Shown here: positions 34,960 to 39,003 of the stretch, in pieces
Numbering within the stretch: the first letter of the stretch is position 1
Layout: each line of letters starts with the position of its first letter
Notes under the pieces: generated by a model
Database searches by the model: none
Seen by the model: only the letters and a program-made list of their open reading frames with translations
Told to the model about the DNA's origin: nothing
Translations under genes and position numbers: made by a program
Assembly (NCBI GenBank): GCA_964016885.1
Contig: OZ024748.1
Location: 40,796,001 to 40,860,000 of the forward strand
Direction of reading: 5' to 3'
DNA length: 64,000 nucleotides
From: Eledone cirrhosa
Lineage: Eukaryota

Positions 34960-35198
34960 TCAAGAATAAAATCTTCACCCCAATAGGGGTTAGGGCATTT
35001 GCCAACTTGAGTTCGGCACACTTGTACGTTGTTCAGGTACACAACACAATAGGGGTGAGGTAAATGTTTGTTGGGCAAATCTCGTCCATCAAATATTTCA
35101 ATTGATAAACTTCTTAATTCTTTCAAGGCTTCCGATAAATGATTAGGTTTTGGAGTTTGAATATTAACACAGTAAGGTTTTAATGATTGGATCCAGTG
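34960..35198 (-). CDS. RASA1: p120 RasGAP exon E (end of PH, start of C2): HWIQSLKPYCVNIQTPKPNHLSEALKELRSLSIEIFDGRDLPNKHLPHPYCVVYLNNVQVCRTQVGKCPNPYWGEDFIL
   Basis: cag|CAC...GA|gtaag, 239 nt, stop-free; C2 motifs PYC and NPxWxExF. Confidence 0.96.
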
Positions 35199-35358
35199 CT
35201 GAAAGATATTACAGACTTTTATAAATGGTTAGAAGCTTGGATTGGGGGGGGGGGGGGTGAGTGATTGAGTGTGTGTCTGTCTGTATGTCATGTGAGTGTG
35301 TACTATCATTTTAATTCTCTACTTTCCTTTAAAAATTGTTAATATAGTTTTAACTTTG

Positions 35359-35400
<42 letters not shown>

Positions 35401-35484
35401 GATTAAAACAATGTCTCTGATCGAGACGAAGTGAGAGAGTATTTGAATATTTATCAAAATGAGAAAACTCATCACTAAAACAGC

Positions 35485-35656
35485 TGTCGATTAAATCAAC
35501 CCCAGTGTATTACTGGTGCCTTATTCTATTGACCCCATAAGCATGAAAGGCAAAGCTAATCTCGGCAGGATTTGAACTCAGAGCATAAAGGACTGCAACA
35601 CTATGCAGCTAAGTATATTGTCCGAGACACTCTACCAACTACTGCCAATCCACGTC
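35485..35656 (-). mobile_element. tRNA-derived SINE fragment (second family)
   Basis: B-box-like GAGTTCAAATCC on minus; paralogue at 15003-15151. Confidence 0.75.
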
Positions 35657-35691
35657 CTTCATGTATAAATTAATAATAATACTAATACTTT

Positions 35692-36089
35692 ATCATCATC
35701 ATCATTTTACGTCCGCTTTTCCCTGCTTGCAAGGGTGGGACGGGTCTTATTCAGCACAGCATCTCTCCACTCGTCACGGTCCCTCGTCATCTCCACCGTG
35801 AGCTTCAATGATCTAAGGTCTGTTCTCACCACCTCCGCCCATGTTTTTCGTGGTCTACCTCTACCACGTCTTCCTTCAACTGGCATTTCCTGGCACTTCT
35901 TCACCCATCGGTCATCCTCCATGCGCATCGCATGTCCATACCACCTCAGTCTCCTCTCCCATACACTACATTCCATCCCTCTCAGACACAGTTTCTCTCT
36001 CAACACATTTATGCTGGGTCGTTCACGCACATTTACACTGCACATCCAACGGAGCATGCTTGCCTCATTTCTCTCCAGCCGTCGCATAT
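35692..36089 (-). mobile_element. 5'-truncated RTE-clade LINE 3' end with (ATG)n tail
   Basis: Open frame ...RRLRWYGHAMRM...GRRGRGRPRKTW...W is typical of the post-RT C-terminus of RTE LINEs; microsatellite tail follows the stop. Confidence 0.88.
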
Positions 36090-36157
36090 CTATTATTATA
36101 TATATAAATATATTATTCAAAATATTAACAAATGAAAAATATTCTCATAATCAAAAT

Positions 36158-36229
36158 ATATACTTTATTATATATATTTCAGAGGTACTGTGTTGTTTTT
36201 TCAGTATGTCCTCATCAGACAAAATATAT
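36158..36229 (-). ncRNA. Minimal type I hammerhead ribozyme motif, core intact, sense to the RASA1 pre-mRNA
   Basis: Minus: auauauuuugu CUGAUGA gga(ca)uacug-loop-cagua(cc)ucu GAAA uauauaUA auaaaguauau; 11-bp helix I including 2 GU. Confidence 0.78.
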
Positions 36230-36758
36230 GATTTGATATATGACATACCCCTACGGTCTTGATTGTTCAATCCCAGTATTGGCAGTGATTTATTTAATCA
36301 AATCTCAATGTTTATATACCACAAATAATATGATAAACTTAAAGAAAAGGATGTAGAGCAAATTAGAGATATGAGAGAGAGTGTAAAGAAGAGGAAAGGC
36401 AAGAAAAAAATTAATAAATACATACATAAATAGATAAATGAATAAAAAATAAATGGATGAATGAGTAAAAGAAATATATAAAAAAGAAAAGAGGAATAAA
36501 GACAAAAGTGGGAAGGTGTGGGGAAAGTAAAGGGAATAGAGGGGGGTAAAGAAAATAAAGAAAAAATAAAGGAACATCAAACAGAGGGGGATGGAGAAGA
36601 AAACCGTTGTTTTCAAATGATAGATCAAATAGGACATCCAATCAATTCACATAATCAATTGAATATCTTTTGTATTTGATTGAGATTTGATTAAATAAAT
36701 CACTGCCAATACTGGAATTGAACAATCAAGACCGTAGAGGTATGTCATATATCAAATC

Positions 36759-36830
36759 ATATATTTTGTCTGATGAGGACATACTGAAAAAACAACACAG
36801 TACCTCTGAACTATATATAATAAAGTATAT
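36759..36830 (+). ncRNA. Inverted twin hammerhead motif with core mutation GAAA>GAAC
   Basis: Same sequence as the 36158-36229 motif except c at 36811. Confidence 0.65.
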
Positions 36831-37083
36831 ATTTTGATTATGAGAATATTTTTCATTTGTTAATATTTTGAATAATATTAAAAACTCCAGGAAAACTTTT
36901 TTGTTGAGTGCTTCTAATCTATTGTAAAATTGTATTCATTGAGTATTCAACGAACCATACTAATCTTTGGTTATATATAAATATATATTATATAAGCAAA
37001 GGGATATTTAATTTGTTGGTAATTCAACAAATATATATATTTATAACTGATTCAAAGCACTCAAGTTTTCTGGAGTATAATAT

Positions 37084-37332
37084 TCAATGATATTAAATAA
37101 ATGGAAACTATATTTATAAAACCATATTTATTCTATTATATATATTTCAAAGGTACCAAAACAGATCTTAACGATTCAAGTTAAGATCTCGTTCCTGGAT
37201 ATGTCACTATTTATAAAATAAACTTTGTATTTTATCTGATGAGAGCATACCAAAGTTTTGGTACCCTTGAAATATATATAATAGAATAAATAAGGTTTTA
37301 TAAATATAGTTTCCATTTATTAATATCATTGA
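37084..37332. repeat. Inverted repeat: ~78-bp arms 37084-37162 and 37255-37332
   Basis: tcaatgatatta...ggtaccaaaac versus gttttggtacc...taatatcattga. Confidence 0.93.
37228..37288 (+). ncRNA. Minimal type I hammerhead ribozyme motif, core intact
   Basis: uauuuuau CUGAUGA gag(ca)uaccaa-aguu-uuggua(cc)cuu GAAA uauauaUA auagaaua; 8-bp helix I. Confidence 0.8.
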
Positions 37333-37499
37333 TATATATATATATATAGAGATTTTAAGTATATGTTGGTTGTATACCAACACCTCAGTATGCAGACTGG
37401 AGCACTCGACGAAGTGCGCAGGTTGGTTTGGTTACTCCGGAGTAATGTAAAATAAAGTAAAATAAATAAGTCAAATGTTTAAATTTAGCTTCGTTTATT

Positions 37500-37554
37500 A
37501 CTGCTATATATATTTAGGTGACAGCCATCTTTGGCTGTGACCTCTTCAGGCAGT
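37500..37554 (-). ncRNA. Inverted twin hammerhead motif with core mutation GAAA>UAAA
   Basis: Reverse complement of 37827-37881 except a at 37516 where c is expected. Confidence 0.68.
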
Positions 37555-37826
37555 CCGAATTAGTGTGGTATAGACAAGTACATATGTTGTTGAGGTGTAT
37601 AATTTTGTCAATACTCTGATATGCCCAGTTTTGAATGAGGAATGTTCTAACAACTGACCAATGAGAGGAGAAGAGGCTCTTTGACACTGAAATTCGTTTG
37701 TCTGAATTCATATGATTCCAGTTCCTCAGTGAAATAACAACCCAACCAGGAACTGGGCATATCAGAGTATTGACAAAATTATACACCTCAACAACATATG
37801 TACTTGTCTATACCACACTAATTCGG

Positions 37827-37881
37827 ACTGCCTGAAGAGGTCACAGCCAAAGATGGCTGTCACCGAAATATATATAGCAGT
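37827..37881 (+). ncRNA. Minimal type I hammerhead ribozyme motif, core intact (best example)
   Basis: acugc CUGAAGA ggu(c)acagcca-aaga-uggcugu(c)acc GAAA u-auau-a UA gcagu, followed by AATAAA; predicted cleavage after 37876. Confidence 0.87.
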
Positions 37882-37944
37882 AATAAACGGAACTAAATTT
37901 TAAACATTTGACTTATTTATTTTACTTTATTTATATATATATAT

Positions 37945-38095
37945 CATCATCATCATCATTTTACGTCTGCTTTTCCCTGTTTGCAAGGGTGGGACGGGAA
38001 CTGAATCTGGCTTGATTTCTACAGCTGGATGCCCTTCCTAACACCAACCTCATTTACAGTGAGTGGTGGGTGCTTTTTTGCCGTGGCACCTCCAC
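37945..38095 (-). mobile_element. SINE-like fragment sharing its 3' tail with the RTE LINE at 35692
   Basis: (atc)n-attttacgtctgcttttccctgtttgcaagggtgggacggg is nearly identical to 35692-35744, then switches to tttctacagctggatgcccttcc. Confidence 0.78.
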
Positions 38096-38105
38096 GACCA
38101 CTATC

Positions 38106-38251
38106 ATCTCATTTCTACAGCTGAGTAAACTGGAGCAATGTGAAATAAAGTGTCTTTCTTAAGGAAACAACACATCACCCGGTCTGAGAATTGAACTCAC
38201 AACCTTTCGATTGCAAGGCCAATGCTCTAACCACTAAGCCATGTGCCTCCA
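38106..38251 (-). mobile_element. 5' half of a tRNA-derived SINE (family of 32440-32702)
   Basis: Minus-strand head tggaggcacaTGGCTTAGTGG ... AGTTCAATTC; shared cagctgagtaaact.gagcaa core. Confidence 0.85.
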
Positions 38252-38380
38252 TATATATATATATATGTATATATATATATTTTTATTAAATATTTGCTCT
38301 ACGGTTCTTATATATTTGATATATATTTATCTTTATCGAGCCCTCTTTGGATTTTAGTTTTCAAATTTATTATTATTACT

Positions 38381-38438
38381 ATTCTATTTCTAATTTCAAA
38401 TTCGCTCGCTGTTTCAAAACATACCTGTCATAAATATA

Positions 38439-38476
<38 letters not shown>

Positions 38477-38534
38477 TATATTTATGACAGGTATGTTTTG
38501 AAACAGCGAGCGAATTTGAAATTAGAAATAGAAT
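38381..38534. repeat. ~154-bp near-perfect palindrome with (TA)n centre
   Basis: ~60-bp arms 38381-38441 and 38475-38534; the spacer is self-complementary (TA)n. Confidence 0.95.
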
Positions 38535-38644
38535 CTTTCGCCGTATTTTTGACTAAAGAAATTTTAGCCTGATAGTGGAGTTTAGAACCCTCAGAGGAAT
38601 GGAAAAAGATGAGTATTGATGTACATACCCATATATATATATAT

Positions 38645-38747
38645 ATGAGTGACACACGGTCACCCGACCAATCTTGCTTCAAGTGGGAAAACTCCCGTCT
38701 AACCCATGCTAGCGTGGAAGATAGACGTTTAAACGATGATGATGATA
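38645..38747 (+). mobile_element. RTE-type 3' tail fragment ending in (GAT)n
   Basis: cccgtctaacccatgctagcgtggaa..gacgtt.aaacgatgatgat; related to 35692, 37945, 34166 and 40686. Confidence 0.7.
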
Positions 38748-38795
38748 TTAAATAATGGTAGTTAAGACGGGGTTAAATCACCATAATTATTTATT

Positions 38796-38846
38796 GCATT
38801 ATATATATTTCTGTTATATGGTTATTCATGTGACTTCGTCAGATGC
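38796..38846 (-). ncRNA. Degenerate minimal hammerhead motif (core intact, helix II decayed), ~70 nt past the exon D donor
   Basis: Minus: gcau CUGACGA agucacaug-aauaac-cauauaaca GAAA uauauaUA augc AAUAAA. Confidence 0.65.
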
Positions 38847-38918
38847 TTACGAATCACTTTGTGTGTGTGTGTGAAGTAACTCAGTATGATGCCGACTTAG
38901 AAATATAAAGTTCCTCAC

Positions 38919-39003
38919 CTGAGCTTTATCCGTACTATCAGCACATAAATAATTTACAGACATGTGGTTGTAAGCATTAATAATCAACTGGAAGCAATTT
39001 GGT
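38919..39003 (-). CDS. RASA1: p120 RasGAP exon D (PH): (R)PNCFQLIINAYNHMSVNYLCADSTDKAQ
   Basis: cag|A...CAG|gtgag, 85 nt; RPNCFQ motif. Confidence 0.96.

What the first reader, a model, noticed from the sequence alone, without database searches (positions are those of the whole stretch)
36110..38846. Intronic cluster of six minimal hammerhead ribozyme motifs sharing one palindromic helix III
Seen: within 2.7 kb there are four distinct sequence types (36158-/36759+, 37228+, 37500-/37827+, 38796-). Each reads helix I - CUGANGA - helix II - GAAA - UAUAUAUA - helix I', with helices I and II differing in sequence yet still pairing, and an AATAAA-like signal nearby. Known: type I hammerheads whose helix III is a 1-2 bp stem capped by a palindromic tetraloop are characteristic of Penelope-like elements and retrozymes and cleave mainly as dimers. 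Inference: these are relics of several related non-autonomous retroelement families that accumulated in this TA-rich intron. Because the helix III palindrome is identical, different copies on one transcript might complement each other as heterodimers.
Basis: partly seen in the sequence, partly recalled or inferred. Interest (0 to 1): 0.85.

Follow-up and report, generated by a model that had tools for sequence, protein, structure and literature searches.

The report
Octopus-like genome's 80,000 pairing hammerhead ribozymes
The six hammerhead-ribozyme motifs are the tail ends of four truncated Penelope-like retrotransposon insertions stacked in one intron of a Ras-regulator gene, a sample of about 80,000 such motifs in this genome whose changing but self-complementary helix III suggests that they likely cut RNA only as pairs.

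Summary
The six motifs are real and not chance, but they come from four insertions, not six elements; two copies have a damaged catalytic core. They lie in intron 35199-38918 of a RASA1-like gene on the minus strand. Families A, B and C are 5'-truncated, partly inverted 3' ends of protein-coding Penelope-like elements with Hydra-clade motifs (RT + GIY-YIG ending 1.2-1.35 kb upstream in longer copies). D has the same anatomy, but no ORF was reached. The genome holds about 80,300 exact-core motifs (48,397 vs 129 in the control for the commonest form), so this cluster is ordinary stacking at (TA)n targets. Helices I and II covary. The palindrome is not invariant: AUAUAUAU, AUAUGUAU, AUACGUAU, AUGUGCAU and AUGCGCAU forms occur, while the mismatched mirror form AUACAUAU is 132-fold rarer than AUAUGUAU (228 vs 30,107). 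That is the pattern expected if helix III pairs between two ribozymes. Helix II keeps an unexplained C mismatch. Heterodimers on this pre-mRNA are unlikely: only three motifs are sense, one has a broken core and two are predicted locked in long hairpins. Cleavage and expression were not testable.

The parts
35199..38918 (-). Intron of a RASA1-like (p120 RasGAP) gene that holds the whole cluster
   Evidence: Flanking exons with GT/AG and phase 0; downstream exon matches Ras GTPase-activating protein 1, PDB 9bz4, E 9e-11 and Pfam C2; a further exon matches RasGAP weakly (E 0.011, below cut-off)
38919..39003 (-). Host exon 5' of the intron (likely part of the PH domain; domain assignment recalled)
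34960..35198 (-). Host exon 3' of the intron (C2 domain)
36110..36678 (-). Family A, long arm: 569-bp 3' end of a Penelope-like element, short end at about 36110
   Evidence: 86% to L099:2522-3054, where RT-EN lies at 25-1596
36158..36229 (-). Hammerhead A-: intact core, 11-bp helix I, predicted cut after 36169; sense on the host pre-mRNA
36679..36972 (+). Family A, inverted short arm with about 95-bp tail; 15-bp direct repeat TATATATAAATATAT at 36099-36113 and 36972-36986 is a likely target duplication
36759..36830 (+). Hammerhead A+: GAAC instead of GAAA, palindrome broken
36990..37162 (-). Family B, inverted partial arm with tail; carries only the 3' half of the hammerhead
37180..37327 (+). 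Family B 3' end; hammerhead B+ at 37228-37288, intact, predicted cut after 37280; antisense to the host gene
   Evidence: longer copies L111, L124, L125 reach a GIY-YIG end 1171-1240 bp upstream
37345..37630 (-). Family C, inverted arm with tail; hammerhead C- at 37500-37554 has UAAA (G12 lost)
37631..37935 (+). Family C 3' end; hammerhead C+ at 37827-37881, intact, predicted cut after 37876; antisense to the host gene
   Evidence: 95% to L088:3951-4262, EN ends 1214 bp upstream
38746..38862 (-). Family D, single short 3' end; hammerhead D- at 38796-38846, intact core, weak helix II, predicted cut after 38800; about 70 nt below the 5' splice site
   Evidence: shared non-coding upstream of at least 0.9 kb in other copies, no ORF reached
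38281..38382 (+).
   Evidence: 97% to L091:7064-7165, about 1 kb below a related EN

Best explanation
The motifs are the 3' ends of four truncated insertions of Penelope-like retrotransposons (three shown to belong to RT + GIY-YIG families, likely of the Hydra clade), and the ribozyme likely works in the parent element as a pair, two copies joining through the self-complementary 8-nt helix III. Shown: longer copies carry the ORF 1.2-1.35 kb upstream; a full copy (L085, related family) has the same motif in two direct 390-bp pLTRs 3,676 bp apart; copies end at two fixed points about 55 and about 140-155 nt past the predicted cut, are often paired with an inverted arm, and are flanked by (TA)n; helices I and II covary; helix III changes only among self-complementary forms. 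Inferred: a pLTR-ORF-pLTR transcript brings two ribozymes together into a double hammerhead, probably with help from the element's protein, which may recognise the conserved C mismatch in helix II; the endonuclease nicks (TA)n, reverse transcription starts inside the RNA at one of two sites downstream of the ribozyme, and early termination plus inversion leaves the 0.1-0.9 kb relics. Each insertion ends in TA runs, which likely attracted the next one, giving A-B-C end to end. In this intron the relics are likely passive passengers whose main effect would be long double-stranded hairpins.
For: Copy number 48,397 vs 129 control. ORF links for A, B (45, 49, 53), C (36, 39), and for related families with other palindromes (86). 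GIY-YIG PF01541 E 1.5e-4, 22.4 bits vs cut-off 22.6, in 1 of 4 proteins tested. Hydra-type motifs RWR/RWT, SDKT, CxCX5C, CxxC..E..N..CxH read against the definition in PMC8557442 section 11. Direct pLTRs 96.7%. Two ends then (TA)n; only 5 of 113 copies share no sequence past the cut. Covariation on 19 sequences: 88.3% of cells paired vs 73.5 shuffled, 14 of 18 pairs with two-sided changes, score 0.543 vs 0.258, slid controls 0.09-0.14. Helix III centre: UA 45,806, UG 30,107, CA 228, CA+CG 989; position 3 not A: 2,622, of the first 100 listed 81 self-complementary by my tally, 53 of them GCGC/GUGC/GUAC; A at 3 with non-U at 6: 781, scattered over families. The two central loop bases cannot pair in a monomer (2-bp hairpin +4.7 vs 8-bp duplex -3.2 kcal/mol). 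Homodimer folds of A and C give the double-hammerhead pairing. Published parallels: dimer model (PMC4209133), protein-assisted cleavage and internal RT starts making the tail (PMC11167929).
Against: No cleavage assay and no RNA data. D is not tied to an ORF in 31 + 20 + 4 loci examined. Counts are copies, not independent events; the EN tree is weakly resolved (7 of 19 inner branches starred) and no formal count of palindrome changes was made. The patterns fixed positions 1, 2, 7, 8 of the octamer and Y/R at 4/5, so other variants were not counted. A-to-I editing of the RNA could inflate the UG form (not CG or GCGC). B and D homodimer MFE folds are not the active dimer. In the anole element the ribozyme was dispensable for insertion in vitro (PMC11167929). 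Pfam found no RT family in the 583-aa ORF; RT identity rests on motifs and likeness by eye to published Hydra proteins. The unit is 3.7 kb, longer than the <3 kb typical of Hydra. Clade placement was not tested by a tree with reference proteins.
Confidence: 0.85

Rival explanations
1. Different families on the host pre-mRNA complement each other as heterodimers and cut the RASA1-like transcript.
For: The UA octamer is shared by 5 of 6 motifs, and co-folding pairs A-B, A-C, B-C and C-D through the full octamer. D- is sense, has an intact core and lies about 70 nt from the 5' splice site. During transcription D- is made first.
Against: Only D-, C- and A- are sense; C- lacks G12; A- and C- are predicted to sit in 180-200-bp self duplexes; D- folds poorly. 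The octamer duplex alone is weak (-3.2 kcal/mol). A cluster of four is about what 80,000 motifs plus TA targeting would give somewhere in the genome (and my arithmetic).
Confidence: 0.06
2. Family D (and possibly others) is a true non-autonomous element or retrozyme mobilised in trans by the Hydra-like proteins.
For: No ORF found next to D in the loci examined; preprint 10.64898/2026.07.22.740005 argues that retrozymes derive from PLE pLTRs.
Against: D is not in head-to-tail tandems, shares at least 0.9 kb of non-coding upstream sequence like the long 3' UTRs of A-C, has the same two ends and inversions, and is older and rarer (80 exact matches), so full copies may simply be scarce. An EN fragment lies 4.9 kb upstream of one D copy (L151), link unproven.
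Confidence: 0.2
3. The ribozyme exists to leave a (UA)4 3' end that anneals to the nicked (TA)n target and primes reverse transcription.
For: The cut would leave ...GAAAUAUAUAUA, matching the target repeat; targets are (TA)n.
Against: Copies run 50-155 nt past the cut; only 5 of 113 share nothing downstream. Related families use GC-rich octamers.
Confidence: 0.04
4. The motif is kept as a protein-binding or structural signal and never cleaves.
For: G10.1-C11.1 is often replaced (GU 46, AA 30, AU 23, GC 21 of 128 distinct motifs), helix II has a fixed mismatch, and minimal PLE hammerheads cleaved poorly in vitro (PMC4209133).
Against: Among the 14 ORF-linked, same-strand motifs listed about 1.2-1.9 kb below an EN end by a relaxed scan (one locus listed twice), the core and UH are kept with at most one change; the cleavage triplet AUA and helix I closing pair are conserved with covariation.
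Confidence: 0.12

Closest known systems
Hydra clade of Penelope-like elements, including Hydra-1_Obim of Octopus bimaculoides (Craig et al. 2021, PMC8557442)
   Same: RW-type N-terminal motif, DKT, CxCX5C linker, C-terminal GIY-YIG without CCHH, (TA)n targets, hammerhead near the 3' end, inverted 5'-truncated copies
   Different: None of the 26 Hydra hammerhead rows in File S2 has this helix III; theirs are 3-4-bp stems with 1-3-nt loops, and stem II is tabulated as fully paired. Hydra-1_Obim is 2.5 kb with another ribozyme. Here the unit is 3.7 kb with a 1.2-1.4 kb 3' UTR, and there are many families and about 80,000 motifs.
Minimal and palindromic-helix-III PLE hammerheads (Cervera and De la Pena 2014, PMC4209133; palindromic stem/loop III also noted in Perreault et al. 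2011, PMC3088659, Fig. S8 legend)
   Same: Type I, unstable palindromic helix III, dispersed single copies, opposite-strand pairs 100-700 bp apart, dimer model
   Different: No extra nucleotide after A9, G10.1-C11.1 not conserved, fixed C mismatch at helix II position 4; copy number about nine times the 9,000 reported for Xenopus tropicalis; within-genome counts of compensatory versus mismatched palindromes were not in the parts I read.
Poseidon element of Anolis carolinensis, PAc (Frangieh et al. 2024, PMC11167929)
   Same: Two 3' ends downstream of the ribozyme (tail), AT-rich targets, copies run past the cut site
   Different: Different clade; tail here is about 85-105 bp rather than 30-40 bp; the ribozyme here lies well upstream of the ORF start.
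Non-LTR retrozymes (PMC7229834; preprint 10.64898/2026.07.22.740005)
   Same: Type I hammerheads, low GC, no ORF in the local copies
   Different: Retrozymes are head-to-tail tandems of 170-400 nt units; these are inverted or single 3' ends of coding elements.

Membership tests
Type I hammerhead ribozyme | Core CUGANGA ... GAAA ... UH | tested here: met
   4 of 6 window copies intact; A+ and C- each carry one core change
Type I hammerhead ribozyme | Helices I (open), II and III with covariation | tested here: met
   helix III is 2 bp in a monomer
Type I hammerhead ribozyme | G10.1-C11.1 pair at the base of helix II | tested here: not met
   GC in 21 of 128 distinct motifs; GU 46, AA 30, AU 23. 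Met in family C only among the window's four
Type I hammerhead ribozyme | Match to an Rfam hammerhead model | tested here: not met
Type I hammerhead ribozyme | Self-cleavage after H17 | not testable with these tools
   needs in vitro transcription or RNA end data
Penelope-like element (EN+) | Single ORF with RT and C-terminal GIY-YIG upstream of the motif | tested here: met
   A: L099 RT-EN; B: L111, L124, L125 EN end; C: L088 EN. Not shown for D
Penelope-like element (EN+) | Direct pseudo-LTRs holding the hammerhead | tested here: met
   L085, a related family: 390 bp, 96.7%; not seen for A-D themselves
Penelope-like element (EN+) | 5' truncation, inverted arm, optional tail | tested here: met
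Hydra clade | RWK motif | tested here: met
   RRIRWRA, RRLRWRA, RRLRWTA in L086, L085, L152: R-W kept, third residue R or T; read in related families, N-termini of A-C not recovered
Hydra clade | DKG changed to DKT | tested here: met
   SDKTNNLY in L086 and L152
Hydra clade | CxCX5C linker; CxxC and CxH around E and N; no CCHH | tested here: met
   L087 ORF read by eye
Hydra clade | Insertion into (TA)n | tested here: met
Hydra clade | Generally shorter than 3 kb | tested here: not met
   3,676 bp between the two motifs of L085; described as a tendency, not a strict criterion
Hydra clade | Phylogenetic placement with reference Hydra RTs | not tested
   reference proteins seen only as text in the supplement; compared by eye
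Non-LTR retrozyme | Head-to-tail tandem repeats of 170-400 nt, no coding parent | tested here: not met
   no such tandem at the cluster; A-C have coding parents

The most novel reading that the evidence does not exclude
The helix III octamer is a pairing code that works between molecules. The UA and UG forms (about 76,000 of 80,000 motifs) are mutually compatible, so the many truncated copies transcribed inside host introns act in trans as partners that switch on or poison cleavage of full-length element RNA, or are cut themselves once element protein binds the conserved C mismatch, while GC-rich palindromes let other families escape this cross-talk.
Probability: 0.12. Interest if true: 0.85.

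Novelty: new variant of a known kind. Interest (0 to 1): 0.47.

Why it matters
What the hammerhead does in Penelope-like elements is an open question: it cleaves poorly alone and was dispensable for insertion in one in vitro system. This genome offers a natural mutational series of about 80,000 motifs across many families in which self-complementarity of a loop, not its sequence, is conserved, and a helix II mismatch is kept against repair (G opposite the C in 376 of 75,913). These give exact constructs for testing dimer cleavage and protein dependence. The load itself is larger than any count in the papers I read, is invisible to Rfam, and seeds introns with near-perfect hairpins in an animal group known for heavy A-to-I editing (recalled). 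The cluster in this intron is not special.

Tried and rejected
Rfam: no hammerhead hit; the miRNA hits at 38402-38513 are artefacts of a TA-centred palindrome. Bare core pattern in the window not above chance. Pfam found nothing in 3 of 4 PLE ORF pieces. Earlier findings: none by words or by place. Linking D to an ORF failed in 31 loci, 20 loci and 4 extended loci. First downstream scan had a bug in cut-site placement and its empty lists were discarded; one search stopped early and was completed. That relaxed scan missed some known motifs (for example L082) and found none below many ENs, several of which were inverted or cut off by the locus end, so it does not show that every family has the motif. 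End lengths above about 160 nt are inflated by shared flanking repeats. Neptune membership was considered from the cysteine linker and dropped for Hydra. The '(UA)4 primer tail' idea was rejected on copy ends. Neutral CpG decay as the source of the UG form was rejected because it would give CA equally often. The AAUAAA near the cut was seen but not tested against AT-rich background. Whole-intron MFE folding ignores co-transcriptional order.
Full report
Observation. The six motifs are present as described, and a covariance model built from 19 related sequences finds exactly these six in the window plus a partial seventh at 37125-37187 (four of the six were in the training set). Two are damaged: A+ has GAAC and C- has UAAA. 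The six are not independent: A-/A+ and C-/C+ are arms of inverted repeats, and B has an inverted partial arm. Rfam sees none of them. The bare core is not above chance in the window, but core plus UAUAUAUA occurs 48,397 times in the 3.0-Gb genome against 129 for the reversed pattern.

Host context. The window is mostly minisatellite with exons between the arrays. On the minus strand these spell a RASA1-like gene: the exon at 34960-35198 matches Ras GTPase-activating protein 1 (PDB 9bz4, E 9e-11) and Pfam C2; 2 of 7 exon pieces tested gave a relevant Pfam match, the second weak. Splice signals and phase place the cluster in a 3,720-bp intron, 35199-38918.

What the motifs belong to. Each family has many close copies (B 905 and D 80 exact matches to tight patterns), typically as an inverted pair with a tail on one arm. 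Copies end about 55 nt or about 140-155 nt past the predicted cut and run into (TA)n. Longer copies lead to an ORF: A in L099, B in L111, L124 and L125, C in L088, with the endonuclease ending 1.17-1.35 kb above the motif. A related family shows the full layout, two direct 390-bp repeats holding the motif around the ORF, with the tail continuing into the 5' leader (L085). The proteins carry the motifs that define the Hydra clade in PMC8557442 (section 11; motifs). Endonucleases of A, B and C are 61%, 47% and 46% identical pairwise, so these are separate coding families. D has the same anatomy and at least 0.9 kb of shared upstream sequence but no ORF was reached.

Why a cluster. A, B and C abut, separated only by TA runs, and A has a likely 15-bp target duplication (my reading of the flanks). 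Among the first 100 listed matches (82 events after merging same-family pairs, families labelled by eye), 5 neighbours lay within 3 kb against 1.25 expected (P 0.009). With 48,397 motifs a four-event window of 2.74 kb is expected 0.08 times in the genome under uniform placement; with about 80,300 it is about 0.6 times (my arithmetic), before any TA-target effect. The cluster needs no special explanation.

Ribozyme anatomy. On 19 sequences, 88.3% of cells pair and 14 of 18 pairs show two-sided changes; no shuffle of 500 reached the covariation score and slid controls were far lower (relatedness inflates the shuffle test). Helix II position 4 is never paired in 128 distinct motifs (CC 94, CA 31, UC 3), while positions 2, 3, 5, 6 and 7 pair in 88-98%. 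Genome-wide, 45,806 of 48,397 have C there, and G faces it in only 376 of 75,913 UA/UG motifs. There is no extra base after A9 and G10.1-C11.1 is not conserved.

Helix III test. Because the octamer is a palindrome, AUAUGUAU and AUACAUAU are mirror-image DNA transitions and should be equally common under decay. They are 30,107 and 228 (the second with a slightly wider gap). AUACGUAU is about 760 (minus). Changes at position 3 number 2,622; by my tally of the first 100 listed, 81 remain self-complementary, including family-fixed AUGCGCAU (25), AUGUGCAU (20) and AUGUACAU (8). A at 3 with non-U at 6 numbers 781, spread over families. The UG, CG and GCGC families also sit next to Hydra-like ORFs. 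The five disjoint classes sum to 80,305. The central loop bases cannot pair within one molecule, so wobble and compensatory changes point to pairing between two ribozymes. Limits: copies are not independent events, outer octamer positions were fixed by the queries, and RNA editing could add to UG.

Heterodimers here. Co-folding lets most pairs of families join through the octamer, so the idea is chemically possible. On the actual pre-mRNA only D-, C- and A- are sense. C- lacks G12, A- and C- are predicted almost wholly paired with their inverted arms, and D- does not fold into the active form. No RNA run was listed, so expression and cleavage are untested.

Literature. Seven searches. PMC4209133: main text parts 1-2 of 4 and supplement parts 1-2 of 3; it describes minimal PLE hammerheads, opposite-strand pairs, palindromic helix III and low dimer activity; no cephalopod in the Fig. 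S3 rows I saw. PMC8557442: passages, section 11, supplement part 2 of 59 and searched passages; it lists Hydra-1_Obim with a different hammerhead. PMC11167929: parts 1-2 of 4. PMC13282606 (Octopus vulgaris repeat annotation): passages; 'ribozyme' and 'hammerhead' occur 0 times in the main text, and 31 recently active Penelope-like families are listed. Preprint 10.64898/2026.07.22.740005: parts 1-2 of 5, supplements not seen. PMC3088659 and PMC7229834: passages. I found no description of this motif family or of the helix II mismatch in these, but Repbase, Dfam and subscription papers were not searchable, and unread supplements or repeat libraries may already hold these elements.

Verdict. Real, and a known kind of thing: Penelope-like 3' ends with dimer-type hammerheads. 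The cluster is ordinary. The variant architecture, the scale and the covariation evidence for intermolecular pairing are the worthwhile parts.

Noticed in passing
window 38381-38534: Perfect palindrome with 77-bp arms around a (TA)n centre; not matched at length in the loci compared; origin unexplained, possibly two inverted ends of another TA-targeting element.
   Followed up: partly
window 38281-38382 (+); L091:7064-7230: 3' end of a fifth Penelope-like family; in L091 the sequence upstream has a hammerhead-like stretch with a non-canonical first box (CAGAAGA ... GAAA) that was not resolved.
   Followed up: partly
window 13400-40460 (-): RASA1-like gene whose introns are filled by minisatellite arrays of 25-59 bp units, several starting right at exon edges.
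   Followed up: partly
window 35691-36085, 37945-38250, 38694-38747: LINE/SINE-like 3' fragments ending in (ATG)n/(CAT)n, inserted at TA runs next to the Penelope-like ends; 38184-38241 is tRNA-like at 28.1 bits, just under the Rfam cut-off.
   Followed up: no
window 36110-36878 and 37450-37932: Inverted arms would form 200-bp and about 180-bp near-perfect RNA duplexes in the host intron, candidate A-to-I editing substrates.
   Followed up: no
window 37152-37186: Small hairpin at the inversion junction of element B, possibly a trace of the template switch.
   Followed up: no
B+, C+, D- just 3' of the cut; A across the cut: AAUAAA lies 4-11 nt after the predicted cut in B, C and D and spans the cut in A; in A and B it falls partly inside helix I. 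Not tested against background.
   Followed up: no
G000:C3:89.37-90.25 Mb (L102, L104-L106, L108): Near-identical family A ORF fragments recur about every 150 kb, suggesting a large segmental tandem array.
   Followed up: no
L051:7698-7767: A weaker match to the hammerhead model 7.7 kb beyond the window end (27.1 bits).
   Followed up: no
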